Origin: a virus
Lineage: Duplodnaviria > Caudoviricetes
Strand: one strand, 5' to 3'
Virus record (IMG/VR): IMGVR_UViG_3300008107_000020
Length of the DNA: 64,000 bases
The notes under the pieces are model-generated. The model was given only the letters and a program-made list of their open reading frames with translations, was not told the origin of the DNA and made no database searches. Positions 36,745 through 56,002 of the stretch are shown in pieces; position 1 is the first letter of the stretch, and the number at the start of each line of letters is the position of its first letter. The translations under genes were made by a program, and so were the position numbers.

Positions 36745-37581
36745 ATGTTATTAAAAGTAGGTTCAAAAGGAGATGATGTAAAAAAACTCCAAGCGAAACT
36801 GGGTACGACAGCTGATGGCGCTTTCGGTCCAGGTACAGAAAAATTAGTTAAAGAATGGCAAGCTGCCAATGGTTTAACAGCTGATGGTATTGTTGGTGAT
36901 GCGACTTGGGCAAAAATGGGTTTAAATGAGGGCGCTGCCCCAGCTAAACCAGCTGCCGCTCCAGTAGCTATCCCACCATCTAGCTTCAAATTAGAAGCAT
37001 TAAAAGGTCATATCCCTGATGCGGTTATTGCTCAGATCCCTGACACAGCAGCTAAATTCAACATTACAAACGTATTAAGATTAGCACATTTCTTGGCACA
37101 GTGTGGTCATGAATCTGGTGGTTTTAAAGCTGTTAGCGAAAACTTAAATTACAGCGCTGATGGTCTTAAAAAAATATTCCCTAAATATTTTCCTGGTAAT
37201 TTAAATGAGTCTTATTCTCGTCAGCCAGAAAAAATTGCTAACCGTGTATATTCATCTCGTATGGGTAATGGTGATGAAGCTTCTGGTGAAGGTTTTAAAT
37301 TCAGAGGCCGTGGATACATTCAATTAACTGGTAAATCAAACTACACAGCGTTTGACAAAATGGTTGAGGAGAATATAATTGAAACGCCAGATCTTGTTGC
37401 AACAAAATATCCTTTAATGTCAGCGGCATTTTTCTTTGATTCAAATAAACTTTGGTCTATATGTGACAAGGGTGCTGATGATGCAACGGTAACAGCTGTT
37501 ACAAAAAGAGTTAATGGTGGTACAATCGGTTTAGCTGATAGAATCAAACATTTTAAAGAATATTACAATTTACTAAAATAA
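36745..37581 (+). CDS. Endolysin: PG-binding domain plus GH19 (chitinase-class) muramidase
   Basis: LLKVGSKGDDVKKLQ...DGIVGDATW, then AHFLAQCGHESG, FRGRGYIQLTG and TKRVNGG. Confidence 0.9.
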   Translation: MLLKVGSKGDDVKKLQAKLGTTADGAFGPGTEKLVKEWQAANGLTADGIVGDATWAKMGLNEGAAPAKPAAAPVAIPPSSFKLEALKGHIPDAVIAQIPDTAAKFNITNVLRLAHFLAQCGHESGGFKAVSENLNYSADGLKKIFPKYFPGNLNESYSRQPEKIANRVYSSRMGNGDEASGEGFKFRGRGYIQLTGKSNYTAFDKMVEENIIETPDLVATKYPLMSAAFFFDSNKLWSICDKGADDATVTAVTKRVNGGTIGLADRIKHFKEYYNLLK

Positions 37582-37604: not shown

Positions 37605-37844
37605 ATGGACGAAATTATGGGAATGGTAAAACTATTTGCTGGTACTTACGAAGTTAACGGCTTTATGTTTTGCGATGGTAGAAAATTACCAATTAATGGT
37701 AACGAGGCGCTTTTTAGTATAATCGGTACTATATACGGTGGTGATGGTATCACAACATTTGAGATACCAGATTTAAAAGATAAAGCACCTGAGGGTATGC
37801 ATTATATGATTTGCGTGCAAGGTATTTATCCACCAAGATATTAA
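37605..37844 (+). CDS. Phage tail-collar domain protein
   Basis: GMVKLFAG...FMFCDGR.L.I...ALFSIIGTIYGGDG...F.IPDL. Confidence 0.85.
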   Translation: MDEIMGMVKLFAGTYEVNGFMFCDGRKLPINGNEALFSIIGTIYGGDGITTFEIPDLKDKAPEGMHYMICVQGIYPPRY

Positions 37845-38155: not shown

Positions 38156-38184
38156 AAAGGCTTGGTTTTTACCAGGCCTTTTTT
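38156..38184 (+). terminator. Intrinsic terminator
   Basis: AAAGGCTTGGT-TTTT-ACCAGGCCTTTTTT. Confidence 0.8.
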
Positions 38185-38195
38185 ATTATTGTACT

Positions 38196-38396
38196 ATGAG
38201 TTTTAACAAAAGATATGTTGACAGTCGTAAAATTTTAATATATAAAGATAGGTTAGAAGACCTCTTTACTAATAAAATTGACGCATTTATATTTAATGAT
38301 AATTTCTCAAAAGAGATATTTGATTTATATGAGGAAAAAAAATTTGATTTAATTAGGGATCGAATACTTGAATATGAGACTAAATCGCTGATCTAA
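38196..38396 (+). CDS. Hypothetical protein
   Basis: ORF track. Confidence 0.6.
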   Translation: MSFNKRYVDSRKILIYKDRLEDLFTNKIDAFIFNDNFSKEIFDLYEEKKFDLIRDRILEYETKSLI

Positions 38397-39086
38397 CGGC
38401 TTTACATTTTTATTTAATTCTGAACTAATTGTCGATAAATAACCCTCATAAACAAAACCAATAGACGTTGTTTTTTTAATCGCCTTTGTTATCGATAGAT
38501 TGTAATTACCGACAGTGTTTCTTACCCATATTAAATCATTAGTCGATACAACAGCTGGTTGTAATAATAAATTATGCTCAACGGTGTAATCAGTCACTTT
38601 ATATTTAAACGTATGTCTATAAGAAACTCTTTTACTACCAAACCAGAGTTTTGATATTTCTGATCTGTCATACACATATGCAAGTGAAACACTGCCACCT
38701 AATTTATTAGTCTTAAAAGATTTTTTAAGACCCATACCACCAGAAACACTTAAATCTAAATTTTTAACTAAAGAATGCTCAACAGTTGAAAATAGTATCA
38801 CACTGTAATTGTTTTTAACTTCTTTCCAGGAAAATATATTTAACCTAGCATCCTCAGACTGTTTAATAAATTCGTTATTCTTTTGCCCATAAAATAAAAA
38901 ATAATATGGGTTTAAACTAACCCCAATGTCCTTTTTTTTATTATTAAGTTCATAACTCATTTTAGACGTTATCTGAACATTTTTATTGTTTCCAGTAAGT
39001 AACACCCCACCTAGGTCGAAACTCTTTATTTGGGCCTCTAAATGACCAAAAAAACATACTAATAATACTGTTATAAAATACTTCAT
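38349..39086 (-). CDS. Secreted probable outer-membrane beta-barrel (DUF481-like)
   Basis: Signal peptide MKYFITVLLVCFFGHLEAQ, alternating amphipathic strands, aromatic residues near the C-terminus. Confidence 0.6.
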   Translation of the reverse strand: MKYFITVLLVCFFGHLEAQIKSFDLGGVLLTGNNKNVQITSKMSYELNNKKKDIGVSLNPYYFLFYGQKNNEFIKQSEDARLNIFSWKEVKNNYSVILFSTVEHSLVKNLDLSVSGGMGLKKSFKTNKLGGSVSLAYVYDRSEISKLWFGSKRVSYRHTFKYKVTDYTVEHNLLLQPAVVSTNDLIWVRNTVGNYNLSITKAIKKTTSIGFVYEGYLSTISSELNKNVKPLDQRFSLIFKYSIPN

Positions 39087-39087
39087 A

Positions 39088-39546
39088 TTATAGTTTACTA
39101 ACTGCATCAATTATACCTTTTTTCATAGCAATACCTATTGATGATTTGCTAAATGGCACTTTACCTTCTTTTAGTTCAATAAAAGCGTAGCTAGCTGTTG
39201 TAGCTGACTCGCCAATACCATCAACAACCGTTTCACCAAAATGAAGTTTCAATAATATTTGAGTTGTTTCTGTAGCGGCACCAACACCAGCGATTCTGAA
39301 AGTTGTTGACGGTGTACCAACTCTAGTAATCTCAACCATAACTGGTATAGCGTTTTGTTCACATAATGAATACTTTTCGGATAACACCTCTTCGGTTATT
39401 TGTTTAACCCCGAATAAGATATTCCTATCTTTAAACTCTTTTATTTTCATTGTGCTGTAAACTGAATCTACCTTAACACAAGTTTGAGAAAAAGCTGATA
39501 CTGGTACTATTAGTACAAATATGAGCGCTAAAATAAACTGTTTCAT
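39088..39546 (-). CDS. Secreted protein, apparent short paralogue of the CsgG-like protein at 43328
   Basis: Signal peptide; GIGESATT...FSKSSIGIAMKK matches GLGEAKTV...FNQSTIGTSTKK. Confidence 0.6.
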   Translation of the reverse strand: MKQFILALIFVLIVPVSAFSQTCVKVDSVYSTMKIKEFKDRNILFGVKQITEEVLSEKYSLCEQNAIPVMVEITRVGTPSTTFRIAGVGAATETTQILLKLHFGETVVDGIGESATTASYAFIELKEGKVPFSKSSIGIAMKKGIIDAVSKL

Positions 39547-39550
39547 AATT

Positions 39551-41836
39551 TTATTGTTTATAACCTGTTTTTATTATATAAAAATTTGAAGTCCCGTTAT
39601 GGGTTAAATTATCAACCATAAGTGACTGAGCCCCAGTATAGGTTGTTTTTAAATTATTATTAGATCCGTTAATCACTGACCACTGTGCTGATGTAAATAA
39701 CCTATAATTAGGGGTTAAATTTAACCAGCTTGGTAATATATTATTATTTCTTTGAAACACCAGAACAACATCTGTTATTGTTAACATATCGTTTCCATTT
39801 ACATCCATTCTGTAATAATCTCTCGCATTAAAAGATTGGGTTAATAACTTTTGGTTAAAAAACTGAGCATCAGTAATACTGGGTAGTAAAACGGTGATAC
39901 TCTCACCAGCAATCAACCTAAAATCATTTAAATTAACGCTTTCATTTGTTGTTATTGTGTATTTTCCATTAGCATCTGTTGTATACGTCCCATATAATGT
40001 GTAGTTTGTTTGAGTTTTAATCTTATAGTATAGTTTTACAGATATACCAGATACCCCAATATTTTCAGTGTTATACACATATCCCGAATAAGCAAATGGG
40101 TTTACGATTATAATACCATTGTTTGAGTATGTATAACCACAAGTCCCACTTTGTAACTGGGCCCTGAATAAAGTTGCGTCAGTCTGATTACTGTATGTAT
40201 AGGTTGCCGCAGTATTTGCAATATCCGTCCATGTAACTCCGTTATTAACCGATCTTTGCCATTTTACTATTGTACCAGTATAGCCACTTAAAGTTAGTGT
40301 ACCAGAATTAGTTGTGCTGGTATGTACGGCTGATGATACGGAACCGCCTGTTGGTGGGGTACCTGTTATAACACTGATGGTTTTACTAGTTGAATAAACC
40401 GCACTACCACAATTAGGTGTCTGAACCTCTACTCTGTAGTAATATGTTCCAGCGGATGATATTGTTTCCGTTAAAGCTGTAGTTGTATTGGTTATGTTAG
40501 TCCAATTAATATTATCCGTAGATTTTTGCCATTTATTAATGTTACCCTGTTGACCAGATAGCGTTAACTCAACAACACCACCAGCGCATATGGTATTGTT
40601 TGCAGCGAATACGGTACCAGAATTAGTTGGTTTTACCGATAAAAACACACTAGAAGAGGATAGCGATGAACAAGTAACTGGGCTACTTGAATTAACGATT
40701 GCCCTGTAATAAGTTGTCTTTGTTATATTTGATATTGTTATACTGGTTGATGTGCTGGATATAGTTGTACCAGCGGTAAAGAAGTTATCAAAGGATGATT
40801 CCCACCTAACAACACTACCAGTCATACCACTCAAAGTTAACACCGTACTATTTGAACCAGAACAAACGTTTATATCTCCGCCACTAATAGTACCAGTGGA
40901 ACCGTTGCCCACATTTATTTGTCTTGTGAATATTGTTACACTTGATGTTAGATCACCAGGCATATCACCATATTCACAAATATAACCAGGTAAATTTGTA
41001 TTTGGTAAGTCATTCCATGAACCACTATTTGCTGAATAAAATTGTGCGTAATGTTCCCCACCAGCGTTGTTTGGTTCCCCACCAGCCCATTTTGCGTATT
41101 GACCTGTAACCGCTGTACTACCGTTAGAAAATTGCGTTCCCTTCTCGGGGCCAGTAACCCAGTGCCATTTTTGTTCCACTGCTGCTTGTGATGCAAAAGC
41201 TGTTGTACCTTTTGCCGCATTTACCTGACCAACCTCATCTGAACCGCCAAACCAACCATCTGAAGACATTAATTTCCAGATAAAATTATTCTCAGCTTCA
41301 GATAGCATTGTGGCTAGATAACCAACCCTACCAAAATAAGAGCGATTTTCAGCTGAACTTTTAGCACTTGTCCAAGATCCAGATGACGCTACATATTCAT
41401 AAAAATGTTCTGTTAACGGGTTGTAAAAAACCGTACCAGCGACAAATGTTATTCTTCTTAGGTTTGCGTAACAAGTTGTTGTTGTTGATTTAAACGTCAC
41501 AGTTCTTAAAAGAGTTTGCCAGTTAGCGGCTGTTGTCGTACCGTTAAAACTTAATATACCTGTCGTTGAGTTCCAACTTGCTGTTACACCAGTCGGTAAA
41601 GTACCTGTGTAAGTTAATACATCCCCAGATGTATATGTTTGCGATATTTGTACCCTGAAACCAGTTATGTTCCCATTAGCGGTTATTGTTAAATTAGCGT
41701 CAACCACAGTGGCTGTGTTATATGAAACGGATAGGCTCGAAGCGGTACCGCCAACAGTTATGCTAGTTGCTTGAGCGTTAACAATGCTCGTACAACAAAT
41801 AAACATAACCAAGAATAAAAAAAACCTTTTCATCAT
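39551..41836 (-). CDS. Secreted protein with C-type lectin domain, Ig-like repeats and a C-terminal dockerin-like module
   Basis: Signal peptide; GYLATMLSEAENNFI...GEPNN...WNDL...YICEYG; DVNGNDMLTITD. Confidence 0.75.
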   Translation of the reverse strand: MMKRFFLFLVMFICCTSIVNAQATSITVGGTASSLSVSYNTATVVDANLTITANGNITGFRVQISQTYTSGDVLTYTGTLPTGVTASWNSTTGILSFNGTTTAANWQTLLRTVTFKSTTTTCYANLRRITFVAGTVFYNPLTEHFYEYVASSGSWTSAKSSAENRSYFGRVGYLATMLSEAENNFIWKLMSSDGWFGGSDEVGQVNAAKGTTAFASQAAVEQKWHWVTGPEKGTQFSNGSTAVTGQYAKWAGGEPNNAGGEHYAQFYSANSGSWNDLPNTNLPGYICEYGDMPGDLTSSVTIFTRQINVGNGSTGTISGGDINVCSGSNSTVLTLSGMTGSVVRWESSFDNFFTAGTTISSTSTSITISNITKTTYYRAIVNSSSPVTCSSLSSSSVFLSVKPTNSGTVFAANNTICAGGVVELTLSGQQGNINKWQKSTDNINWTNITNTTTALTETISSAGTYYYRVEVQTPNCGSAVYSTSKTISVITGTPPTGGSVSSAVHTSTTNSGTLTLSGYTGTIVKWQRSVNNGVTWTDIANTAATYTYSNQTDATLFRAQLQSGTCGYTYSNNGIIIVNPFAYSGYVYNTENIGVSGISVKLYYKIKTQTNYTLYGTYTTDANGKYTITTNESVNLNDFRLIAGESITVLLPSITDAQFFNQKLLTQSFNARDYYRMDVNGNDMLTITDVVLVFQRNNNILPSWLNLTPNYRLFTSAQWSVINGSNNNLKTTYTGAQSLMVDNLTHNGTSNFYIIKTGYKQ

Positions 41837-43320
41837 AACGCTAATCTTGTACCCATCATTACTGTATAATTTAATACGTTATCCCCGAGAGAATAAGCAC
41901 CACCAAAATTAAAATTTAATTTAAATGTTTTTGTCACACCTAAGTTCATACCAACAATCGGTAAAACAACAAATGGTGATTTTAAAACAGCATCATCGTA
42001 ATATCTAACAAATGGTGCGTAAACAAATAGAGCCATTGTTTTAATATCAAGGCGCTTTCCTACTTTAAAATCCCTATTACCACCAACAATTGCAGCCGAA
42101 CCATAATAAGGTTCTTTATAAATTTGGCCACCCGAAGCTGTAACCATGTAAACAGCTTTAAACTTTTTAATACTCCTCATCTGGCCAAAAGCGATGGTGT
42201 TATACATAGACCCACTACCAGCAAAACCAATTGTAATTGTATTAGAAAGTAATGTAATGGCTTTACGATTTATCCAGGCGTAATAACCAGTGATGTTACC
42301 GCCTTGTATTGAAGATGTATAATCGAGCATAATACCGTGTGATCTTAGACCATCATATCTTACAGATGAATAACCAGCATTGACCCTTGAACCTTTACTA
42401 ACCTCACCCTCATTAAATTGAAAACCTACTAAGTCACTACTCATAAGTATTGATGGTCTACCACCGTTTTTACTTGTGGCTGACCCCTTACCGTTACCGC
42501 TACTACTACCACTTTTTACAGCGTTTGTTGTACCACCTACAGCATCTGATTTTTTTTCTTCGGTGGTTTGTGTTTGATTGCCTGTTGAACCATTACCACC
42601 AGATCCACCAGACCCTGTAGAGCTTGTGGTGGTACCACCTGAACCACCAGTAGAACCACCACCAGTGTTGGTGTTACCCGTTCCACCTGTTTCACCAGAC
42701 CCTGTAGTGTTTCCACCACTTGTGCTTGTACCTGTGGTAGTTTCAGAACTACCACCACCATTATTATTTCCAGTAGTAGTACCAGATGAACTAGATCCAC
42801 TTGAATTATTTCCATTAGATTGTGTTTGTCCTTGTGACCCCCCACCAGATTGGTTTCCCCCACTAGAAGAGTTTTTATTATCCTTATTATCTTTACCACC
42901 ATCACCGTTTCCACCAACACTAGTAACCGATCCAGCTGCTGCCATTATGTTACCCGTACCACTAGATGCCATATCACTAATAGCCGATAAAGCACCAAAT
43001 ATACTAACCACATTTAAAGCTGTGCTCTGGGTTTGCGATACAGTAACAGCGGTACCTATACTCCCGCATGGTGAAGCGTTTTGGAATTGATTGAAAACAC
43101 CAGCCGCCCAGTTGTCAAAGACACCGTTATTAAAATCATTAGCTGTAAAGGTACCCACTTGACCGTAGTACGTTACAGCTATTTGATTTTGCCCGTAAGG
43201 AATTGATATATTATATACCTTGCCATTGCAAGGGTCGGTGTAAGAATAATTAAATGATTGAGCACTCGCTATGTTGCATAGCAAAGACACAAAAATAACT
43301 ATAATCAATTTTATTCTCAC
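41833..43320 (-). CDS. Secreted protein with Gly/Ser/Thr linker and probable C-terminal beta-barrel
   Basis: Signal peptide, low-complexity central region, amphipathic strands ending in MGTRLAL. Confidence 0.65.
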   Translation of the reverse strand: MRIKLIIVIFVSLLCNIASAQSFNYSYTDPCNGKVYNISIPYGQNQIAVTYYGQVGTFTANDFNNGVFDNWAAGVFNQFQNASPCGSIGTAVTVSQTQSTALNVVSIFGALSAISDMASSGTGNIMAAAGSVTSVGGNGDGGKDNKDNKNSSSGGNQSGGGSQGQTQSNGNNSSGSSSSGTTTGNNNGGGSSETTTGTSTSGGNTTGSGETGGTGNTNTGGGSTGGSGGTTTSSTGSGGSGGNGSTGNQTQTTEEKKSDAVGGTTNAVKSGSSSGNGKGSATSKNGGRPSILMSSDLVGFQFNEGEVSKGSRVNAGYSSVRYDGLRSHGIMLDYTSSIQGGNITGYYAWINRKAITLLSNTITIGFAGSGSMYNTIAFGQMRSIKKFKAVYMVTASGGQIYKEPYYGSAAIVGGNRDFKVGKRLDIKTMALFVYAPFVRYYDDAVLKSPFVVLPIVGMNLGVTKTFKLNFNFGGAYSLGDNVLNYTVMMGTRLAL

Positions 43321-43327
43321 GCACGTT

Positions 43328-44047
43328 TTAGTTCTTGAATAAACCTTTTTTAATTAATTTTACAACAACTCTAGAAGATGCAGTTTCTAAAGCCTTTTTA
43401 GTTGATGTTCCTATTGTTGATTGATTAAATTTGATTTCATCCACATCATCTAGAATTGTTGACATTTTAACTGTTTTAGCTTCACCCAAACCAGAACCAA
43501 CTATAACTTCACCAGTTTCGGCATCAACAAATTTAACTTGCATACCCAATCTGGTTGTTTGTGTTGCGGTAGCCTTACCATTAACTTTAACAACCTCATC
43601 TTCAGACACACTAAAGTCGTAAACTTCAATGTAAACAAAATACTTCGCTAATTTAACTTTACCCCTACCATCAACTTTGTTTTCAGTAAACCCCTTATCA
43701 GATGCTTTAAATTGGTTAACCATTCTTTCTTTAATTTCTAATTTATCTTCAGTAAAGACAAATCTGTTAGTCATTTCCAGAAATTCGATTACAATATTGG
43801 TTACACCTAAACCAACTCTTTTATCTTTTAATTCAGGGTACATCTCATAAAGTTCTTCCGTGAACCCTATTTTTAATAACTGGATGGGGTATTTGATCGT
43901 GTCAGTATAATTTGAGACAACATCAATAGATTGAGTTTGCTCAAAACTAGCCTTATATTCTTCGGTTTTAACACTACCAATAGTCTGTGCTTGGGTTTTA
44001 CAAGCACAGAATATTATTGGCAATATAATGAATAATAATTTTTTCAT
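43328..44047 (-). CDS. CsgG/HfaB-family lipoprotein
   Basis: MKKLLFIILPIIFCAC lipoprotein-type signal; TNRFVFTE, YFVYIEVYDFS, RLGMQVKFVDAETGEVI. Confidence 0.72.
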   Translation of the reverse strand: MKKLLFIILPIIFCACKTQAQTIGSVKTEEYKASFEQTQSIDVVSNYTDTIKYPIQLLKIGFTEELYEMYPELKDKRVGLGVTNIVIEFLEMTNRFVFTEDKLEIKERMVNQFKASDKGFTENKVDGRGKVKLAKYFVYIEVYDFSVSEDEVVKVNGKATATQTTRLGMQVKFVDAETGEVIVGSGLGEAKTVKMSTILDDVDEIKFNQSTIGTSTKKALETASSRVVVKLIKKGLFKN

Positions 44048-44048
44048 A

Positions 44049-44405
44049 TTAAACTTCTGTTGTGTTTGATAAAGAAACACCATCTTCCTCGTCAACTTTT
44101 TGGATCAACATTTTGTCTCTATCTTCTGAGTTGAACCAGTAGTCAACAACCTTATTTAAGTTACCAACGAAAGCACCTAATAAGATTAATAACATTTCTT
44201 TCCAATCTTCACCAATTGATACACCGAAGAAAACAGCTGAATTAATACCAGCTACGATGAAAAAGAATAAGAATAATACAATTCCAGTTATTCTCCATCT
44301 ATTAGCTTGCATTTGTTGTAACATGTAATAGAATCTGTTTTTATCCTCAACTTGTACAGGCGCAGGTGCGCTAGTAAAACTTTTTAATGTTTCTTTAATT
44401 TTCAT
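44049..44405 (-). CDS. Small two-TM membrane protein
   Basis: Two hydrophobic helices followed by KVVDYWFNS. Confidence 0.65.
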   Translation of the reverse strand: MKIKETLKSFTSAPAPVQVEDKNRFYYMLQQMQANRWRITGIVLFLFFFIVAGINSAVFFGVSIGEDWKEMLLILLGAFVGNLNKVVDYWFNSEDRDKMLIQKVDEEDGVSLSNTTEV

Positions 44406-44446
44406 ATTAGTTTTCTTTTCTTTTTTTATTTTTATCTCTTTTTTCA

Positions 44447-44779
44447 TTACCAAGGACTATCTTCAGTTTCTGATTTTTTAGCTGGTTTTTCTTCTTTAAC
44501 GGGTGCGGCTTTTTCAACAACAGTTGTTTTTTCCTTAATAATAGTATTGGTACCGCCACCAGCATTATTTTTAGAAGAGTTATCAACACTTATATTGATT
44601 GCGGGTTGTGCAGCTGGAGCCGCTTGTTCCGTTTTTGTTTCTTCCTCACCACCACCAAATAATGTGGTTGTGAAATAGGTCCCACCAGCCATTATAGCTG
44701 TTGTGATAACCCCGATGATCGTTTTCTTTAAACCTGACCATGTTCCGTCTGATTCAGGTACATTTGTTTCCTCTGACAT
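44447..44779 (-). CDS. Single-TM membrane protein
   Basis: TIIGVITTAIMAGGTYF helix and low-complexity tail. Confidence 0.65.
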   Translation of the reverse strand: MSEETNVPESDGTWSGLKKTIIGVITTAIMAGGTYFTTTLFGGGEEETKTEQAAPAAQPAINISVDNSSKNNAGGGTNTIIKEKTTVVEKAAPVKEEKPAKKSETEDSPW

Positions 44780-44790
44780 TGTTTTAAATT

Positions 44791-46689
44791 TTAGTTTAGT
44801 TTTATTGTTTTATTTGTTTTAATATCATTTTGTGTTCTTAAAATACCGTAGTATGTACCAGGTATAACATTAGTTAAATCAACTGGATAAAGATATTTAC
44901 CTTTATACATTTTACCACTAAAAACTGTGTGTACTAATTTGCCGCTCGCATCGTAAAACCCAACGTTTATTTCACCATCTTCTGGTACACTAAAACTAAC
45001 AAGAGCTAAACCTTCTGTTGGATTAGGTGACACAATTATTTCACAATCTTTTGTTGTTACAGCACCGCCATTAATTCTGAATATTTTAACAACACCATTT
45101 GTTGGTGTAATTCTCAAATCAGTTGCGTTTGCATCACCAGCATATTTTCTTATAACATATAAAGGGCTATTATTCCAAGTACTTTGTGGTGATAAGGCTG
45201 TAAATTGTAACGTTAAAACAATATCCCCATCATTAGCCAAATATTCGTTTCTACTCATATCAGCGCCAGCCCACTCAACGATACCATTATTTGGATTTAA
45301 AAATGACATCCAATTCATAAATTTTTCCTCTGTTTTAATACCTTTAAACTCTAATAAAGAGTTATCATAGGCTAAAGCTAATTGAATTGAACCAACTTGG
45401 TCGCCTTGTGTTAAAACTTTCATTGGTACGTTTAATAAACTACCTTCAGTAATTTCGATTTTAGGTAAATTAATTTCGATTGTAGCGGTTGGAAAATCGT
45501 ACTCAACAGTTTCATCGATAATGTATTGAGGTGTCTTACTAGGGTTTAAGATCTCAATAGGAATTGTACGAGCCATATGGAAACCAGTACCGTTTGCATC
45601 ACCGCCACCTAATACATAGAATGTTACTGAGTCTGGCTGACCAGCGATAATATCAAATGTTAAATTAGTTACACCAGCAATAGTTGATGTGTAGTTAGTT
45701 GAAGACCCGTTAATGGTATTATATTGTGAAACTGTAAAGAATCTAACATCCTGAACAGAGTTTGGCCACACTGAGAATCTACCCGCTAAACGACCATAGA
45801 TAGCCGATACGTCAGCGATTGTAATACCGTAAGAACCGTTCACGTCAGAAGCGTAGAAATCAAATCCAGCTGGGGTTTCTTCACCTATAACAAATTTATT
45901 AACCTTTTGTGCATCGGCAACAGATACTGTGTTACCCACAGCCATTGTATCACCTTTAACGTATAAGTGAGCATCCCAATAAGTTGTATCTAAGATTTCA
46001 TCGAAGGCAAAATAACCAGTAATGTCAGTTGTATCAAGTTTAACCTGAGTCCAGGCACCCGTTGATGTTTTAGGTCTTTTTTCTAAAGCAATTGTGATAT
46101 TTTTAGAGCCAGAACCAGTTACGTTTGTAAATCTACCATGGTATTTTAATCTATTCATTTTGAACTCACCACCATAACTGTGTAAAGATAAGGTTGTATC
46201 AATACCAGCTATTGTTGACGCATATGAGGGAAACGTTAAAGTACCAGTCACCTTTAAACTATCAATACTAGTTAAAGCTTGGAAAGCGGTTGCAGCTTGG
46301 TGAAAGAATTTGATCTGAAATGCCGCACCGTTAGCGTATGTAAAAGAGTTGTTCGTACCTGTATAAGCTAACGTAACGGTGATGTTACCATTTACCGAAT
46401 CCGCAACATATTGCATATACTGATCAGAAGTACTGTACAATAAAGATACGATTGGTTTTGCACCACCAAAAGCCACTTTGTCGTAGAACACACGGAACTG
46501 TAAACCAGCGATTTTAGTCGTTGTTGTGTTGTCATAGTAAAGGTTAGCTAAAGTGAAACCTTGTGACTGCGGACCAACATTGTAAGAAGAGTCAACGATA
46601 ACCCAATTACCACTCGATGGTGCAGTTGTTTGTGCATAGCCCGTAATGGCTAATAACGCCAGCACTAGCGTTAAAAATAAATTTTTCAT
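44791..46689 (-). CDS. T9SS type-A cargo protein with cohesin-like and dockerin-like modules
   Basis: Signal peptide; cohesin-like IAGLQFRVFYD and VGSIQLALAYDNSLLEF; DVNGSYGITIAD; C-terminal SPNPT...FYDASGKLV...PGTYYGILRT sorting domain. Confidence 0.8.
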   Translation of the reverse strand: MKNLFLTLVLALLAITGYAQTTAPSSGNWVIVDSSYNVGPQSQGFTLANLYYDNTTTTKIAGLQFRVFYDKVAFGGAKPIVSLLYSTSDQYMQYVADSVNGNITVTLAYTGTNNSFTYANGAAFQIKFFHQAATAFQALTSIDSLKVTGTLTFPSYASTIAGIDTTLSLHSYGGEFKMNRLKYHGRFTNVTGSGSKNITIALEKRPKTSTGAWTQVKLDTTDITGYFAFDEILDTTYWDAHLYVKGDTMAVGNTVSVADAQKVNKFVIGEETPAGFDFYASDVNGSYGITIADVSAIYGRLAGRFSVWPNSVQDVRFFTVSQYNTINGSSTNYTSTIAGVTNLTFDIIAGQPDSVTFYVLGGGDANGTGFHMARTIPIEILNPSKTPQYIIDETVEYDFPTATIEINLPKIEITEGSLLNVPMKVLTQGDQVGSIQLALAYDNSLLEFKGIKTEEKFMNWMSFLNPNNGIVEWAGADMSRNEYLANDGDIVLTLQFTALSPQSTWNNSPLYVIRKYAGDANATDLRITPTNGVVKIFRINGGAVTTKDCEIIVSPNPTEGLALVSFSVPEDGEINVGFYDASGKLVHTVFSGKMYKGKYLYPVDLTNVIPGTYYGILRTQNDIKTNKTIKLN

Positions 46690-46815
46690 GTTGTTTTGTT
46701 TTGATATTAATAAATAGATAAAAATCATAAAAAAACCATTTACTTTAAAAAAAAAAGTATTAAAACGGCCCTAACTTTTACCCGAAACCCTAATATTTAT
46801 TGTTTAAAAAAGATT

Positions 46816-47742: not shown

Positions 47743-48036
47743 ATGAAAAACACAAAACACAACCCAACAATGATGATTAAATCAGCTTTCTCAAATAAAC
47801 TTCACAAAATACTAGGTGAATGCATCGAACACAAACGCTATTCAAGAGAATGGTATGATTGTAAAAGAGTAAAAACCAAATTGACTGATGAGGATAAAAT
47901 TAAACTTTTTGATGAGATCAAAACCATCTATGAAGAAACTTCTCAAGAACTGAGAAATTATTTTCAGGATAGAAATCTTAAGAAAAGAGTTGAAAAAGAA
48001 CGAGTTAAGAGAGGTTATACAGTCCAGTTGAGTTAA
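47743..48036 (+). CDS. Hypothetical basic protein
   Basis: ORF track. Confidence 0.65.
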   Translation: MKNTKHNPTMMIKSAFSNKLHKILGECIEHKRYSREWYDCKRVKTKLTDEDKIKLFDEIKTIYEETSQELRNYFQDRNLKKRVEKERVKRGYTVQLS

Positions 48037-48048
48037 AGACTCAATGGA

Positions 48049-48189
48049 TGTTGTGTGACGAAATTGGTATACGTGCTGGTCAGTACCCAAAAGAGTGTAG
48101 AATGGGGGAAACTGGCGGACATACTACAGACACGAGTAGTAGGAGATTAGGTCTTTAAATCCATGTGGGTTCGAATCCCACCACAACAG
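48049..48189 (+). ncRNA. tRNA-Leu-like RNA with a 65-nt insert in place of the anticodon loop
   Basis: Acceptor TGTTGTG/CACAACA, Leu-type D arm ACG-AAATTGGTATA-CGT, stem CTGGT/ATTAG, T arm GTGGG-TTCGAAT-CCCAC. Confidence 0.65.
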
Positions 48190-48250
48190 CGCACCAACAT
48201 AAGGTTGGAACCTCAAGGCTACGTAGAGGATAATGGTTAACGTAGCAAAT

Positions 48251-49392: not shown

Positions 49393-49474
49393 GCCAGTAT
49401 CGCATAGCGGCAATTGCAGCGGATTGTAAACCCGCTCTCATTCGAGTTCGGTGGTTCGAGTCCACCTGCTGGCA
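49393..49474 (+). tRNA. tRNA-Tyr(GTA)
   Basis: Cloverleaf with long variable arm; loop TTGTAAA. Confidence 0.88.
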
Positions 49475-49486
49475 CTATTTATTAAT

Positions 49487-49948
49487 ATGAGGAAACTAAT
49501 ATTAATGATCGTAATGGTTTTATCCACAACGATTTGTAAATCACAAATTGTGATAGATAAAGCTGGGGATGGTTGGGATCTAAGAGCTGATAGCGCTTTG
49601 GTGATTATTAAGCAAACAGATACCACCGCATATAAACTCGTATTACGAGTTTGTAATAAAATAACTTTTTGGTCTGGGAACTACTCAACAAACGAGGGTT
49701 CTAAAGATACAAAAGGAAGTATAATAATATCATCGACAGATGCTAGGGCTAAATCCTTAAACAATCTAGCGGCTGTTATTGTGCACGAATCTTTACACCT
49801 TTATCTTAGATATAGGGGTGTTCAAGAATCACCAAGAGAAGAAATACTCTGTTACTCATATGAGTATGACTTCTTAAGGAAAATACCAAATGTTGAACAA
49901 TATCTGTTAGACCATTGTCTAAGACAGATAAACCTTCGACAAAATTAA
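49487..49948 (+). CDS. Secreted HExxH (zincin-like) protein inserted in the tRNA array
   Basis: Signal peptide MRKLILMIVMVLSTTICKSQ; VIVHESLHLY and a downstream EE. The track start at 49451 overlaps tRNA-Tyr. Confidence 0.7.
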   Translation: MRKLILMIVMVLSTTICKSQIVIDKAGDGWDLRADSALVIIKQTDTTAYKLVLRVCNKITFWSGNYSTNEGSKDTKGSIIISSTDARAKSLNNLAAVIVHESLHLYLRYRGVQESPREEILCYSYEYDFLRKIPNVEQYLLDHCLRQINLRQN

Positions 49949-49949
49949 T

Positions 49950-50022
49950 GGGGTTATAGCTCAATTGGCTGAGCGCTTCCCTTGCAAGGAAGAGGATGTG
50001 GGTTCGAGTCCCATTAGCTCCA
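49950..50022 (+). tRNA. tRNA-Ala(TGC)
   Basis: Cloverleaf; G3:U70; loop CTTGCAA. Confidence 0.92.
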
Positions 50023-50028
50023 CTATAT

Positions 50029-51825: not shown

Positions 51826-53049
51826 ATGGCAGGCACATCAAAAAGATATTACGTTGTAAATGACAATTATAATCAGGATCTAAACCAATATTACGAAAAC
51901 GGGTACCCGAGCTATATAATATATAAACAAAGGGGTAATAACGGTGATACCGCTATGATCTTATTTAGTGAAAAGAATTTACCAATAGCAGACATATTCC
52001 CAGACCCCCCAGGGTTTGCTTACCCAGTTGGTTATGTTGGAGATACCATTCACCCATCTGTTGATGGGTCTAACAAATATGTCGTTACAATGACATCAAC
52101 AACAGATGTTGACAGACATCCTAAATTTTATGTTGCTGATACCCAAAACGATTTAAGGGATATGTTAATAAGATTATTCCCAACTGTTTCTTTAACTGGA
52201 AGTACGTACAATTCTTATTTAAATTTATTAAACGAGTTACATGGACCAGGTAATGGTTATTTGACATACCATAATTTATTACATCCAGGTTTTCCATTCC
52301 CTTCTGGTTATGGGGATGGTACGTATTTAAATCCATCATTAGTTATAGACCCATACTTTATAGATTGTTGGGATAGATCGTCAAATGCTTTTTACGATAT
52401 ATCATACCACAACGACTCCACTCTTTTTATATGTCCAGCTGGCGTACCTAATGTTAACTTTAACACAACAGGCGCTTTTACAGGCCTTAACACAAAACCA
52501 TTGATTGGTATTAATTATTTTAATACTGTCGCACCTATAACATCAACAAGTAGCACAATGGGTATAGAATTTTGGATTAAAAACGCTGACAACACAGCTG
52601 GTGTTTCAATTCCAGCATTTATAAGAGGTTGGTCTAGTGGTCAAATCGCTTGCGGTGTTACTATAAACAATGGTACTGTTTATGCATACTCAAACGGTAG
52701 TCAAGTTCAAGTTTCAATTAGTAATATTCTTAATGCTGGTGTGTGGAATCATATTTTTGTTTCTTATGAACAAGTTGGCGCTGGTATTGGGATAAGATGT
52801 TGGGTTAACGGTGCTGAATTCACGTTAAATGGTATACCTATTGTTGGTAACGCTATTGTTGGTACACATCAAGAAACAGCAACAATTGGTTGTTACACGG
52901 CAAATGGTACAACCATAGACAGTTCAATGCCAACATTTGGTTCAACACATGAAATAGCTATGATTAGATTTTATGGTGATGACACATTATCATTAAATAA
53001 TGAAATACAATATTTATATAAAGCAACTTACGAAAGATTTTTCCTATAA
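51826..53049 (+). CDS. Probable virion protein with C-terminal LamG/ConA-like domain
   Basis: MGIEFWIK...GVWNHIFVSY...RCWVNG...IAMIRFY. Confidence 0.65.
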   Translation: MAGTSKRYYVVNDNYNQDLNQYYENGYPSYIIYKQRGNNGDTAMILFSEKNLPIADIFPDPPGFAYPVGYVGDTIHPSVDGSNKYVVTMTSTTDVDRHPKFYVADTQNDLRDMLIRLFPTVSLTGSTYNSYLNLLNELHGPGNGYLTYHNLLHPGFPFPSGYGDGTYLNPSLVIDPYFIDCWDRSSNAFYDISYHNDSTLFICPAGVPNVNFNTTGAFTGLNTKPLIGINYFNTVAPITSTSSTMGIEFWIKNADNTAGVSIPAFIRGWSSGQIACGVTINNGTVYAYSNGSQVQVSISNILNAGVWNHIFVSYEQVGAGIGIRCWVNGAEFTLNGIPIVGNAIVGTHQETATIGCYTANGTTIDSSMPTFGSTHEIAMIRFYGDDTLSLNNEIQYLYKATYERFFL

Positions 53050-54952: not shown

Positions 54953-56002
54953 TTAAAGACCGTATCTTGATTTTGTTTCGTTATATTCCGCTAATATTTC
55001 AGCACCCGTTATATTTGATTTCCATATTTTAAATATACCCATATTGGCGTTCATTTGATAAGAATTACCACCAATAGCACCCATCCACCAGTTACTGTTG
55101 TTCATACCGATATTACTAACTGGCGAACCACCACTGGCAGTGGCGATTTCAGTACCATTTTTATAAAATTTTATAGATGGTGTTGTTTTATTAAAAACAA
55201 ACGTTAACATTTGCCATGTGTTTACAGAAACTGTATTACTAGCTGTCGATGTTGTGTTACCAACAGAACCGTTACCAGCCTCAAAATTCATCGTATAGTT
55301 TGTTGTTGTCCAGTTATTCCAGGACATTTTAAATCCATTTGTGGCTGTATTGGCACCGCAATTGGACATTAAGTTATTAATACTAGCCTCAGTTCTTGGA
55401 TAAACCCAAGCATTTACGGTTATGTTATTACCAAAATCATATTGCCCAAAGGTTATGGTATCACTCACACCATCAAAATTAAAAACCCCACCAGCTGTCG
55501 CACCGTCATAAGCAACACCACTTAAGGTTCCTTGTGTACCAGTTATATCACCAATTAAACCTATGTTCTTTAAAGTTGTTCCAGAACCTGTATATGATAA
55601 AACATTACCTGGATCATAATAAAATTGAGCAGAGGGTACGCTACTTGGTTGATTAATTAAATAATATTTATTACTATCGTTAACCCACGTTACAGCAGCT
55701 GCAACTGTATCTAATAAAGTCATACCACGTCTGTCGTTTAACCTATTTACTATCGCCAAAAAATCAGCGTCAGATGTCGCAACCCAAAATAAAGGTTTTG
55801 CATTACCCTGTGTACTAAAACCAAGATCATACGAATTAGAGATCATTACATAGTCGTTGCTGTAGGAAGGCGAATTATACCAAGTTAAACCACCAGTGTT
55901 CACCCTATAGTTATTAGCGACCGTACCAACTTCATTGTTACCGTATTTAGTACCATAGGCTGTTACAGTGCCACTATTATATGCTACAACTTTATTACTC
56001 AA
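54953..56002 (-). CDS. LamG/ConA-like domain virion protein
   Basis: FYYDPGN..SY.GSG, FNFDGVSD, ITVNAWVYP, WQMLTFVF, IKFYKNG. Confidence 0.75.
   Translation of the reverse strand: MSNKVVAYNSGTVTAYGTKYGNNEVGTVANNYRVNTGGLTWYNSPSYSNDYVMISNSYDLGFSTQGNAKPLFWVATSDADFLAIVNRLNDRRGMTLLDTVAAAVTWVNDSNKYYLINQPSSVPSAQFYYDPGNVLSYTGSGTTLKNIGLIGDITGTQGTLSGVAYDGATAGGVFNFDGVSDTITFGQYDFGNNITVNAWVYPRTEASINNLMSNCGANTATNGFKMSWNNWTTTNYTMNFEAGNGSVGNTTSTASNTVSVNTWQMLTFVFNKTTPSIKFYKNGTEIATASGGSPVSNIGMNNSNWWMGAIGGNSYQMNANMGIFKIWKSNITGAEILAEYNETKSRYGL

What the first reader, a model, noticed from the sequence alone, without database searches (positions are those of the whole stretch)
38349..46689. Phage-borne eight-gene operon for a host cell-surface apparatus (T9SS cargo, CsgG-like pore, beta-barrels, lectin)
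Seen: eight tightly coupled minus-strand genes behind a TATTTATT motif, all with signal peptides or TM helices. They encode a T9SS-CTD cohesin/dockerin protein, two membrane proteins, a CsgG-like lipoprotein, a linker plus barrel protein, a lectin/Ig protein, a CsgG paralogue and a DUF481-like barrel. Established: T9SS CTDs direct export in Bacteroidota, and CsgG forms outer-membrane secretion pores. Inference: the phage remodels the infected cell surface (aggregation with new hosts, adhesion, superinfection or grazer protection). I know of no described phage system like this.
Basis: partly seen in the sequence, partly recalled or inferred. Interest (0 to 1): 0.8.

Follow-up and report, generated by a model that had tools for sequence, protein, structure and literature searches.

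The report
Phage-encoded exported envelope and lectin module
[quoted passage not shown] It probably re-coats the infected cell's surface, but nobody has tested what it is for.

Summary
Eight tightly coupled minus-strand genes (38349-46689) encode exported or membrane proteins. Confirmed parts:
- a cohesin protein with a T9SS C-terminal sorting domain (CTD);
- two inner-membrane proteins;
- two paralogous CsgG-superfamily proteins;
- a Gly/Ser/Thr/Asn-rich protein ending in a 12-strand, autotransporter-like barrel;
- a C-type lectin/Ig protein;
- a DUF481-like barrel.

Corrections:
- The CsgG-like proteins are not conserved lipoproteins.
- An outer-membrane pore is not shown; only the fold, transitive homology and a modelled head-to-tail oligomer are.
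- Gene 8 is not part of the conserved core.
- A secreted HExxH protein (sitting in the tRNA array here) and the endolysin are co-inherited with the block.

The block is not chimeric. Genes 1-7 recur in order in more than 100 IMG/VR phage contigs, including complete 271-434 kb genomes. A reduced form occurs in cultured Flavobacterium phage vB_FspM_immuto (gp013-gp019, annotated only as lectin, cohesin or hypothetical). Only five metagenome-assembled genomes (MAGs) among 185,579 species genomes hold it.

Function is inferred. The most likely role is display of swappable lectins on the infected cell; a lysis-linked role is the main rival.

Pelagiphage curli modules are a published precedent for phage-borne CsgG clusters. 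This scan has already noted the same module on other DNA.

The parts
46709..46716 (-). TATTTATT promoter-like motif, 20 nt upstream of the gene 1 start
   Evidence: TATTTATW is enriched in the window (30 vs 16.3 +/- 4.0). It lies shortly upstream of many ORF starts, including the fibre gene. It is found upstream of gene 1 in 23 of 52 distinct relatives.
44791..46689 (-). Gene 1 (632 aa from M14 of P0001): signal peptide, N-terminal beta-rich part, about 70-aa module shared with gene 6, cohesin domain, T9SS type A C-terminal sorting domain
   Evidence: Cohesin 1.8e-9 at 38.3 bits; Por_Secre_tail 22.9 bits. TIGR04183 24.2 bits against cutoff 23. Relatives score 32-34 bits for Por_Secre_tail. Shared module at 35% identity, E 1e-11.
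44447..44779 (-). Gene 2 (110 aa): bitopic membrane protein with one hydrophobic helix near residues 21-41, then an Ala/Pro/Glu/Lys-rich tail
   Evidence: Sequence. No family hit. Present in 113 of 121 loci.
44049..44405 (-). Gene 3 (118 aa from M17 of P0003): two hydrophobic helices and a charged C-terminus; the best conserved protein of the block
   Evidence: Sequence. Median 84% identity in relatives, but absent from 15 of 51 full loci and from phage immuto.
43328..44047 (-). Gene 4 (239 aa from M17 of P0004): exported CsgG-superfamily protein, modelled as a head-to-tail oligomer
   Evidence: Fold: CsgG 4uv3/4uv2 E 4e-8, TM 0.42-0.47; atlas CsgG/HfaB clusters TM 0.50-0.60. Family-profile hits carry PF03783 above cutoff. 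Four-copy model ipSAE 0.78 vs 0.00 for the best control. Identity 54-96% across relatives.
41833..43320 (-). Gene 5 (495 aa): signal peptide, about 90-aa Cys-containing head, about 175-aa Gly/Ser/Thr/Asn-rich linker, C-terminal 12-strand beta-barrel of autotransporter type
   Evidence: Barrel model pLDDT 81, pTM 0.75, 12 strands. EstA 3kvn E 2.4e-8. PF03797 atlas clusters TM 0.85-0.88. Linker composition G 29%, S 21%, T 16%, N 11%.
39551..41836 (-). Gene 6 (761 aa): signal peptide, N-domain, C-type lectin domain with EPN and WND motifs, three Ig-like repeats, beta-sandwich, C-terminal module shared with gene 1
   Evidence: Lectin_C 26.0 bits (cutoff 22.6) and Ig_7 29.8 bits (cutoff 27.3). Relatives at this position carry Lectin_C plus Laminin_G_3 or pentaxin.
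39088..39546 (-). Gene 7 (152 aa): short exported paralogue of gene 4 with an invariant Cys just after the signal peptide
   Evidence: hhalign A1 vs A2 probability 97%, E 5.8e-11. Alignment.
38349..39086 (-). Gene 8 (245 aa from M9 of P0008): DUF481-like outer-membrane barrel; accessory, not core
   Evidence: An in-frame stop upstream of M9 in a relative fixes the start. Two of 14 relatives hit PF04338 at 2.5e-8. Language-model match 0.97 to DUF481 clusters. Present in only 12 of 51 full loci.
38156..38181 (.). GC-rich hairpin with T-runs on both sides; terminator-like, between gene 8 and the convergent plus-strand genes
36745..37581 (+). Endolysin (PG_binding_1 plus GH19) without a signal peptide; co-inherited with the block
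   Evidence: Pfam; phrog_181 endolysin 2.7e-67. Within 8 kb of gene 4 in 41 of 51 full loci while other flanks occur in 9 or fewer. At most 123 nt from a module gene in 19 of 54 loci, and on the same strand in 37 of 54.
49487..49948 (+). Secreted 153-aa HExxH protein (P0009 from M13); in relatives it follows gene 7, here it sits between tRNA-Tyr and tRNA-Ala
   Evidence: Sequence. Homologue present in 40 of 51 full loci, usually directly after gene 7. Only a weak SprT-like hint, E 0.12.

Best explanation
This is a phage-encoded envelope module of a Flavobacterium-type (Bacteroidota) jumbo phage. It is transcribed as one coupled operon from a phage-type promoter motif.

Shown:
- Seven products carry Sec signal peptides of the Bacteroidota kind, with cleavage before Gln. 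Two more are small inner-membrane proteins.
- Gene 1 carries a cohesin domain and a T9SS type A sorting domain.
- Genes 4 and 7 are paralogous CsgG-superfamily proteins.
- Gene 5 ends in a 12-strand autotransporter-type barrel behind a long Gly/Ser/Thr/Asn linker.
- Gene 6 is a C-type lectin whose other sugar-binding domains are swapped between relatives.

Inferred mechanism:
- Gene 1 protein is taken across the outer membrane by the host T9SS.
- Its cohesin holds the roughly 70-aa module that it shares with the lectin, so the lectin is mounted on the cell surface.
- Gene 4 protein, and perhaps gene 7 protein, forms a CsgG/PelC-like ring at the inner face of the outer membrane beside the gene 5 barrel. 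The barrel anchors or exports its head and linker.

Net effect: late in infection the cell, and its debris after lysis by the co-inherited endolysin, is coated with glycan-binding proteins. The coat would either mask receptor glycans (superinfection exclusion, protection of progeny from debris) or stick infected cells to neighbours and particles.
For: Reality and phage origin:
- 199 relatives of gene 4 occur in IMG/VR.
- Genes 1-7 recur in order.
- Complete 271-434 kb genomes with terminal repeats hold the block.
- Cultured Flavobacterium phage immuto holds gp013-gp019.
- Only 5 MAG contigs among 185,579 species genomes hold it.
- Module GC is 0.31-0.38, like its flanks.

Export: signal peptide plus [small]Q is conserved in 56/58, 63/75, 46/47, 27/27, 54/55, 9/9 and 25/27 distinct N-termini. 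The Q-rule is specific to Bacteroidetes (PMC5837995). Within the 64-kb window these are essentially the only signal-peptide proteins.

Domains.

CsgG superfamily.

Oligomer of gene 4: ipSAE 0.78, best of 3 controls 0.00. That mark was reached by 20 of 30 proteins solved as pairs of one chain and by 1 of 23 solved as single chains. The runs share at least 97% of contacts, and the partner pLDDT is at least 81. The interface uses two different faces, as in a ring. Because CsgG rings have been solved, the pass may reflect likeness rather than binding.

Barrel.

Shared module in genes 1 and 6.

Lectin swapping: median identity of gene 6 is 39% against 75% for gene 4, and domain sets differ.

RNA: exact 150-300-nt pieces of genes 1, 3, 4, 5, 6 (one 151-nt piece at its 5' end) and 8 and of the endolysin lie in contigs of four riverine metatranscriptome runs. 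Those runs also hold a CCA-tailed phage tRNA-like RNA, so real phage RNA is present.
Against: - I found no experiment or localisation data.
- The lectin has no recognisable T9SS CTD, so its route across the outer membrane is unknown.
- 'Dockerin' rests only on a DVNG-type motif. There is no Pfam or PDB dockerin match, and I did not model the cohesin pairing.
- Gene 4 has no conserved lipid anchor, and its model is only moderately confident (pLDDT 61).
- Persistent linkage to the endolysin fits a lysis role at least as well.
- The module's transcription timing is unknown. In immuto the block lies among replication genes, 8 kb from the endolysin.
- The RNA evidence is short contigs at depth 2-13, and DNA carry-over is not excluded for the mRNA pieces.
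Confidence: 0.5

Rival explanations
1. Lysis or egress device. The two inner-membrane proteins act as holin/antiholin or as the inner part of a trans-envelope bridge. The gene 5 barrel, with its long periplasmic linker and head, plus the CsgG-like rings, forms the outer-membrane part. Together they act like a spanin and breach the Bacteroidota outer membrane after the endolysin has acted.
For: - The endolysin lies within 8 kb of gene 4 in 41 of 51 full loci, while unrelated flanks occur in 9 or fewer.
- It abuts the block at either end, in either orientation, at most 123 nt away in 19 of 54 loci.
- The endolysin has no signal peptide, so it needs a holin. I recognised no other holin-like gene beside it.
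- Gene 3 has a holin-like layout: small, two helices, charged C-terminus.
- An even-stranded barrel leaves its N-terminal linker in the periplasm unless that linker is threaded outward.
Against: - A 632-aa T9SS cargo and a 761-aa lectin with swapped sugar-binding domains have no obvious part in lysis.
- Gene 3 is missing in 15 of 51 loci and in immuto, where the endolysin is of another type and lies 8 kb away.
- 75-84% identity across distant phages is unusual for holins and spanins (established knowledge).
- No holin or spanin family was hit.
Confidence: 0.2
2. A curli-like (type VIII) or PelBC-like secretion conduit. Gene 4 forms a true outer-membrane channel that exports a phage substrate, for example the Gly/Ser/Asn-rich part of gene 5 as a fibre, or that lets solutes in. 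This is what was proposed for pelagiphage CsgG/CsgF clusters.
For: - The best structural matches of gene 4 are CsgG itself over 220-247 columns.
- The oligomer model is ring-like.
- Hairpin 1 (residues 160-180) is as long and as amphipathic as CsgG TM1 on a crude scale.
- The gene 5 barrel also resembles the amyloid exporter FapF (TM 0.65).
- Published precedent: PMC7029224 and PMC9599517.
Against: - P0004 itself gives no PF03783 hit.
- hhalign against E. coli CsgG gives 0.8% probability.
- No CsgA/B/E/F or curlin repeat is present.
- The lipobox Cys is not conserved.
- The second hairpin region has 8 charged residues of 24.
- The nearest cellular relatives carry the domain beside a Ser/Thr kinase or a caspase domain; such kinase fusions normally place it as an extracytoplasmic domain.
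- Gene 7 is too short (about 130 mature residues) for two membrane hairpins.
Confidence: 0.12
3. Nutrient- or particle-capture aid (auxiliary metabolic role). The lectin and cohesin proteins and the barrels help the infected cell bind and take up polysaccharide or other nutrients to fuel a large burst.
For: - Bacteroidota use surface glycan-binding proteins and T9SS cargo for polysaccharide use (established knowledge).
- The lectin domains are variable.
- The 12-strand barrel also resembles the small sugar-acid porins NanC and the oligogalacturonate porin (TM 0.58-0.64).
Against: - No glycoside hydrolase, SusC/D or TonB-dependent element is in the block.
- The co-inherited partners are an endolysin and a small HExxH protein, plus a secreted nuclease in immuto.
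- Nothing here tests uptake.
Confidence: 0.08
4. Artefact: a bacterial fragment mis-assembled into a phage contig, or virion proteins mistaken for exported ones.
For: - The lectin/ConA-like domains resemble those of phage receptor-binding proteins. The window has Laminin_G_3 proteins at 51826-53049 and 54953-56002.
- Five MAGs hold the block.
Against: - The same order recurs in more than 100 viral contigs with varying flanks.
- It occurs in complete genomes with terminal repeats and in a cultured phage.
- The MAG contigs look like binned phage DNA, for example a 254-kb contig with the endolysin beside the block.
- Signal peptides are conserved throughout, whereas tailed-phage virions assemble in the cytoplasm.
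Confidence: 0.03

Closest known systems
Curli (type VIII secretion) gene clusters of pelagiphages: HTVC008M-type myophages and HTVC023P-type podophages (PMC7029224, PMC9599517)
   Same: A phage-borne, operon-like, widely conserved cluster built around a CsgG-family protein. It gives the infected cell an envelope structure. The function is unknown, and the proposed roles are the same (aggregation or 'sibling capture', superinfection defence, uptake).
   Different: The pelagiphage clusters hold bona fide CsgG, CsgF and CsgA/B plus FecR, a kinase and a cyclase, acquired from Alphaproteobacteria. Here the CsgG-like protein is found only by fold and transitive profile search. There is no CsgF or curlin. 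The partners are a T9SS cargo, an autotransporter-like barrel and lectins, and the host is Bacteroidota.
Flavobacterium phage vB_FspM_immuto gp013-gp019 (NC_055915.1, Immutovirus; host Flavobacterium sp. LMO8)
   Same: A true homologue of the block in a cultured phage: lectin (gp013), gene 1 split into gp014 and gp015 (cohesin plus CTD), gp016 = gene 2, gp017 = gene 4 (65% identity), gp018 = gene 5, gp019 = gene 7.
   Different: It is a reduced form. The lectin comes first, there is no gene 3, gene 8 or HExxH gene, and a secreted nuclease (gp012) lies in front. The endolysin is 8 kb away and of another type. The record annotates the genes only as lectin, cohesin or hypothetical, and no paper in the searched library discusses them.
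CsgG / PelC / FlgT / LpoB / LptE fold group (PDB 4uv3, 5t0z, 9h80, 3w1e, 5ixm)
   Same: The same alpha/beta fold. The sequence pattern is typical of the group. The modelled head-to-tail oligomer is like the CsgG 9-mer and PelC 12-mer rings. The gene is translationally coupled to a barrel gene, as PelC works with the PelB barrel.
   Different: No lipid anchor is conserved. Membrane hairpins are not established. There is no detectable similarity to E. coli CsgG by profile comparison. Two paralogues of different size occur per operon.
Type Va autotransporters (PF03797; EstA 3kvn, NalP 1uyn, AIDA-I 4mee)
   Same: Domain order is signal peptide, N-terminal passenger, then C-terminal 12-strand barrel. 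The barrel superposes on PF03797 models at TM 0.85-0.88 and rmsd 2.1-2.7 A.
   Different: No PF03797 match occurs in any of 44 family members. The 'passenger' is a 90-aa head on a 175-aa low-complexity linker, not a beta-helix. The pore-filling helix was not examined. The linker may simply stay in the periplasm.
T9SS type A cargo and non-cellulosomal cohesin/dockerin modules of Bacteroidota
   Same: Sec signal peptide plus a C-terminal Por_Secre_tail domain; a cohesin domain above the Pfam cutoff.
   Different: It is encoded by a lytic-type jumbo phage rather than by the cell. The presumed dockerin is not recognised by any dockerin model.
Single-gene phage envelope proteins: lambda Lom and Bor, T5 Llp, phi80 Cor (from my own knowledge, not checked here)
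   Same: Phage-encoded outer-membrane or lipoprotein products that change the surface of the infected or lysogenic cell. Llp and Cor mask the receptor.
   Different: Those are single small proteins. This is an 8-10-gene coupled module with its own ring, barrel, scaffold and lectin.

Membership tests
CsgG curli channel (PF03783) | Sequence match to PF03783 | tested here: inconclusive
   P0004 and P0007 give no hit at E <= 0.1. A profile of the P0004 family reaches proteins (E 5e-24 to 2e-13) that score 24.5-45.8 bits on PF03783 against a cutoff of 20.8. This gives superfamily membership by transitivity only.
CsgG curli channel (PF03783) | CsgG-type alpha/beta fold | tested here: met
   Foldseek top 18 PDB hits are CsgG, E 4e-8 to 9e-7, TM 0.36-0.47. 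Atlas CsgG/HfaB clusters give TM 0.50-0.60. The model is only moderate (pLDDT 61).
CsgG curli channel (PF03783) | N-terminal lipobox Cys (lipoprotein) | tested here: not met
   The Cys in the signal peptide of P0004 is absent in most relatives. They end in A/S-Q like signal peptidase I substrates.
CsgG curli channel (PF03783) | Two membrane-spanning beta-hairpins per subunit | tested here: inconclusive
   The region equivalent to TM1 (160-180) resembles CsgG TM1 in length and alternating hydropathy. The region equivalent to TM2 (205-228) has 8 charged residues of 24. The crude scale does not separate the cases.
CsgG curli channel (PF03783) | Cyclic homo-oligomer | tested here: met
   The four-copy model gives ipSAE 0.78 vs 0.00 for the best control, with a head-to-tail interface. 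This is a model only and may reflect likeness to solved CsgG rings.
CsgG curli channel (PF03783) | Operon partners CsgE/CsgF and curlin subunits | tested here: not met
   No Pfam or NCBIfam hit to CsgE, CsgF or curlin repeats in any of the eight proteins at E <= 0.1.
T9SS type A cargo | Sec signal peptide plus C-terminal Por_Secre_tail / TIGR04183 domain | tested here: met
   P0001 scores 24.2 bits on TIGR04183 (cutoff 23) and 22.9 bits on PF18962 (below 27). Relatives score 32.0 and 34.2 bits. Signal peptide in 56 of 58 relatives.
T9SS type A cargo | Host possesses a T9SS and exports the protein through it | not testable with these tools
   The host is inferred to be Bacteroidota from the Q-rule signal peptides, the MAG bins and the Flavobacterium host of immuto. 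Export itself needs an experiment.
Cohesin (PF00963) | Match above the Pfam gathering score | tested here: met
   38.3 bits against 24.1 at residues 418-549. Relatives score 31.0 and 42.2 bits.
Dockerin (PF00404) | Duplicated Ca-binding F-hand recognised by a dockerin model | tested here: not met
   No Pfam hit at E <= 1 on the isolated segments and no PDB dockerin by phmmer. Only a DVNG...I-T/A-D motif and a 72-residue module shared by genes 1 and 6.
Type Va autotransporter (PF03797) | Sequence match to the autotransporter beta-domain | tested here: not met
   No hit for P0005 or for any of 44 aligned family members at E <= 0.01.
Type Va autotransporter (PF03797) | C-terminal 12-strand barrel preceded by an N-terminal passenger | tested here: met
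   12 strands, pLDDT 81. Best matches are EstA, NalP, AIDA-I, BrkA and EspP and PF03797 atlas clusters at TM 0.85-0.88.
Type Va autotransporter (PF03797) | Linker helix inside the barrel and surface exposure of the passenger | not tested
DUF481 outer-membrane barrel (PF04338) | Match to PF04338 | tested here: inconclusive
   P0008 itself gives no hit. Two of 14 aligned relatives (23-27% identical) hit at up to 2.5e-8. The language-model score is 0.97 with 199-202 shared features to DUF481 clusters.
C-type lectin (PF00059) | Match above the gathering score and Ca/sugar-site motifs | tested here: met
   26.0 bits against 22.6 on residues 135-300. EPN and WND motifs are visible in the sequence. 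Relatives score 25.6-34.1 bits.
Holin / spanin lysis proteins | Match to a holin or spanin family, or a coiled-coil i-spanin with a small lipoprotein o-spanin | tested here: not met
   No Pfam, NCBIfam or PHROG lysis family for genes 2-5, 7 or 8. Only the genomic linkage to the endolysin points this way.

The most novel reading that the evidence does not exclude
The block is a self-contained, phage-built surface-display machine. A gene 4 ring plus the gene 5 barrel forms its own outer-membrane station, analogous to PelBC or curli. Together with the hijacked host T9SS it mounts cohesin-held, evolutionarily swappable lectins on the infected cell. The phage thereby masks its own receptor glycans on cells and debris, or captures neighbouring host cells for its progeny.
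Probability: 0.25. Interest if true: 0.85.

Novelty: new variant of a known kind. Interest (0 to 1): 0.64.

Why it matters
Lytic phages are usually thought to leave the host surface alone apart from single exclusion proteins. Here an 8-10-gene exported module, about 3% of a 270-430 kb genome, is kept in order across more than a hundred freshwater and brackish Flavobacterium-type phages.

It would be the first phage module shown to use the Bacteroidota T9SS. It would also be a second, independent case, after the pelagiphage curli clusters, of phages installing a CsgG-family structure in the host envelope. The swapped lectin domains suggest an arms race over surface glycans.

Because a cultured phage-host pair (immuto and Flavobacterium sp. 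LMO8) carries the block, its function can be tested directly. That bears on how phages in dilute waters avoid losing progeny to debris, exclude competitors or find the next host.

Tried and rejected
- Megablast of 24 kb against 50,697 phage records found only a tRNA match. Relatives are too diverged for DNA search; protein search found immuto.
- PHROGs: no annotated family for any of the nine proteins.
- PDB sequence search with profiles of genes 4 and 7 gave only chance-level hits.
- hhalign of the gene 4 family against E. coli CsgG gave 0.8% probability, so direct homology to the curli channel cannot be claimed from sequence.
- The alternating-hydropathy test for membrane hairpins did not discriminate. 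CsgG's own hairpins score no better than the gene 4 segment.
- The gene 5 barrel and the gene 8 barrel are not detectably related (hhalign 0.1%). The idea of two duplicated 'ring plus barrel' pairs holds only for the rings.
- Dockerin: no model or PDB match.
- Sigma-70-type promoter scan: 45 sites against 41.6 +/- 6.5 in shuffles, so it is uninformative. No Bacteroidota TAnnTTTG box was seen by eye upstream of gene 1.
- I tested whether the window's TibC/Aah-type heptosyltransferase (5827-7098) serves the autotransporter-like gene 5. It is present in only 2 of 5 phage records that hold the module and absent from immuto, so there is no consistent link.
- Bacteroidota O-glycosylation motif D-S/T-[AILVMT]: none in genes 5, 6 or 8, and 7 in gene 1. 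This is not informative.
- RNA contigs: most of gene 6 (39103-41370) and most of the helicase region had no cover in the four runs. At these depths that says nothing.
- Runs holding 6-15% of the sampled words were laid before use. No habitat claim is made beyond 'riverine metatranscriptome' as labelled.
- The timing class of the TATTTATW motif could not be set. It precedes the fibre gene, the ClpB-like gene, the tRNA operon and this block alike.

Full report
**1. What is there**

The window is phage DNA. No cellular genome is held for it. It carries:
- a collagen-like fibre with a Peptidase_S74 chaperone, a PG_binding_1/GH19 endolysin and a Phage_L5_gp82 domain protein;
- a ClpB-like protease and a helicase with PHROG matches;
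- a 16-gene tRNA array including a CUA-anticodon suppressor.

Between 38349 and 46728 lie eight minus-strand ORFs. I corrected several starts from relatives. Gene 1 starts at M14 (46689), gene 3 at M17 (44405) and gene 4 at M17 (44047). Gene 8 starts at M9 (39086), because a relative has an in-frame stop upstream of that Met. With these starts the gaps between genes are 11, 41, 1, 7, -4, 4 and 1 nt, and no gene ends in TAG.

TATTTATT lies 20 nt upstream of gene 1. TATTTATW is enriched in the window, 30 against 16.3 +/- 4.0. It lies just upstream of many ORFs, including the fibre gene, and upstream of gene 1 in 23 of 52 distinct relatives. From the window-wide frequency I would expect roughly 2% of relatives to show it by chance. 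A hairpin terminator closes the block.

**2. Not an assembly artefact; a conserved phage module**

- Gene 4 has 199 relatives in IMG/VR at 65-96% identity for the best 80, on contigs up to 434 kb. Gene 6 has 48.
- Across 121 fetched loci the order 1-2-3-4-5-6-7 recurs.
- Among 51 loci with at least 7 kb on both sides of gene 4, genes 1, 5, 6 and 7 are present in 50 and gene 8 in only 12. All other window genes occur in 9 or fewer, with two exceptions: the endolysin (41) and a 165-aa ORF (40).
- In this window that 165-aa ORF sits inside the tRNA array (49451-49948). It is a secreted HExxH protein that normally follows gene 7.
- Four large contigs that hold the block are 92-100% complete by CheckV, two of them with terminal repeats.
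- A scan of one genome for each of 185,579 prokaryote species found five hits. All are MAG contigs: Bacteroidetes, two Flavobacterium, Sediminibacterium and a Micavibrio bin. They look like binned phage DNA.
- A protein search of deposited phage genomes found the block in cultured Flavobacterium phage vB_FspM_immuto (160 kb, host Flavobacterium sp. LMO8).
- There, gp013 is the lectin. gp014 and gp015 are gene 1 in two pieces. gp016 is gene 2, gp017 is gene 4 (65% identity), gp018 is gene 5 and gp019 is gene 7. A secreted nuclease lies in front.
- The record calls these genes lectin, cohesin or hypothetical. No paper in the searched library discusses them.

**3. The products are exported into a Bacteroidota envelope**

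Genes 1, 4, 5, 6, 7 and 8 and the HExxH protein start with a basic residue, a hydrophobic stretch and a small residue followed by Gln. This pattern is conserved in 25/27 to 27/27 of distinct N-termini for most families and in 63/75 for gene 4. Cleavage before Gln is the Bacteroidetes Q-rule (PMC5837995). It has also been noted for Porphyromonas phage proteins (PMC10367356). Within the 64-kb window these are essentially the only proteins with such a signal. Genes 2 and 3 have one and two hydrophobic helices.

**4. What each part is**

*Gene 1.* Cohesin at 38.3 bits and a T9SS type A sorting domain: TIGR04183 at 24.2 bits (cutoff 23), with relatives at 32-34 bits on PF18962.

*Genes 4 and 7.*
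- They are paralogues (hhalign 97%).
- Pfam does not see CsgG in them, and a profile comparison with E. coli CsgG fails.
- The AlphaFold model of gene 4 (pLDDT 61) nonetheless matches CsgG first (E 4e-8). FlgT, HpaA, PelC and LptE follow, as do CsgG/HfaB clusters in the ESM Atlas (TM 0.50-0.60). A language-model search agrees.
- An exhaustive profile search of 1.84 billion representatives found only 288 clusters.
- Its more distant members score above the PF03783 cutoff. In those members the domain sits C-terminal to a Ser/Thr kinase or beside a caspase domain.
- So gene 4 belongs to the CsgG/LpoB superfamily, and its nearest cellular kin are not curli channels.
- The lipobox Cys is not conserved.
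- A four-copy model supports head-to-tail self-association. It gives ipSAE 0.78 against 0.00 for the best of 3 controls. That mark was reached by 20 of 30 solved homo-pairs and 1 of 23 solved monomers. The runs share at least 97% of contacts, and partner pLDDT is at least 81. Because CsgG rings have been solved, the pass may reflect likeness.
- Whether it inserts hairpins into the membrane is unresolved.

*Gene 5.* Residues 285-495 fold as a 12-strand barrel (pLDDT 81). Its best matches are autotransporter beta-domains: EstA at E 2.4e-8 and PF03797 clusters at TM 0.85-0.88. No family member matches PF03797 by sequence. In front lie a 90-aa head and a 175-aa linker of G 29%, S 21%, T 16% and N 11%.

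*Gene 6.* A C-type lectin domain with EPN and WND motifs, plus CHU_C-associated Ig repeats. Relatives at the same position keep the C-type lectin but swap in ConA-like or pentaxin domains. It is also the least conserved protein, at median 39% identity against 75% for gene 4 and 84% for gene 3.

*Module shared by genes 1 and 6.* They share a 72-residue module at 35% identity, E 1e-11. It has a dockerin-like DVNG loop, but no dockerin model or structure matches it.

*Gene 8.* DUF481-like only by transitivity, and unrelated to the gene 5 barrel.

**5. Linkage to the endolysin**

The endolysin abuts the block in several arrangements: in front, behind, or inverted. It is at most 123 nt from a module gene in 19 of 54 loci, at most 550 nt in 34, and on the same strand in 37. 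This persists through rearrangements while other flanks change. That argues for selection on linkage or shared regulation. In immuto, however, a different endolysin lies 8 kb away.

**6. Expression**

Four riverine metatranscriptome runs hold exact 150-300-nt contig pieces of genes 1, 3, 4, 5 and 8, one 151-nt piece at the 5' end of gene 6, and pieces of the endolysin, at depth 2-13. DNA carry-over cannot be excluded for these pieces. The same runs, however, hold a phage tRNA-like RNA with an added CCA end. Real RNA of this phage or a near-identical one is therefore present.

**7. Mechanism**

Best reading (0.5): the phage installs an exported module. The host T9SS carries the cohesin protein to the surface. 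The cohesin holds the lectin through the shared module. The gene 4 ring and gene 5 barrel form an outer-membrane station. The result is a glycan-binding coat on the infected cell and its debris.

The shown steps are export signals, domain identities, paralogy, conservation and linkage. The inferred steps are T9SS use, cohesin pairing, ring-barrel contact, surface exposure and the biological pay-off.

Rivals:
- a lysis or egress device (0.2), favoured by the endolysin linkage and by the pairing of inner-membrane proteins with a tethered barrel;
- a true CsgG-type conduit (0.12);
- nutrient capture (0.08);
- artefact or virion parts (0.03).

**8. Comparison with the known, and novelty**

The nearest published analogue is the curli cluster of pelagiphages (PMC7029224, PMC9599517). 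It shares the idea of a phage-borne CsgG-family operon of unknown purpose, but none of the partner genes and not the host phylum. I therefore rate this a new variant of a known kind.

It matters because a cultured system exists for direct tests.

Earlier notes of this scan describe the same module on other DNA and reach similar readings. I found the synteny, the endolysin linkage and the fold assignments independently, before reading those notes. I took from them only the lead to phage immuto, and I verified that lead.

Noticed in passing
window 48024-48190 (+): A tRNA-like gene that ARAGORN did not list. The Rfam tRNA model matches 48049-48189 end to end (32.9 bits, gathering score 29) although the stretch is 141 nt, so it holds an insert of about 70 nt. 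Metatranscriptome contigs cover 48024-48190 at depth 4-24. They join genome c48190 plus 'CA' (a CCA end) back to 48024. This reads as an abundant, CCA-tailed RNA of about 169 nt.
   Followed up: partly
window 49451-49948 (+): A secreted HExxH protein gene sits between tRNA-Tyr (49393-49475) and tRNA-Ala (49950-50023), and its longest ORF overlaps the tRNA-Tyr gene. In 40 of 51 related loci its homologue instead follows gene 7 of the envelope block.
   Followed up: partly
window 5827-7098 (+) versus 41833-43320 (-): The phage encodes a TibC/Aah-type autotransporter heptosyltransferase and, 35 kb away, an autotransporter-like protein with a Ser/Thr-rich linker. The enzyme is present in only 2 of 5 phage records that hold the module, so the link is not consistent.
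   Followed up: partly
window 37605-37844 (+): The 79-aa ORF right after the endolysin looks by eye like a phage tail-collar / microcystin-dependent-protein domain, not a holin. One related locus (L122) has two copies beside the endolysin.
   Followed up: no
L128 5151-5729 (phage immuto gp012): A secreted NUC1-type nuclease with a Q-rule signal peptide lies directly in front of the lectin gene in the cultured phage. The extended neighbourhood therefore also holds exported hydrolases.
   Followed up: no
proteins P0095, P0108, P0113, P0129, P0140: Cellular relatives of the gene 4 family carry the CsgG-type domain fused to caspase (Peptidase_C14) domains or to Ser/Thr protein kinases. I did not know this use of the fold.
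   Followed up: no
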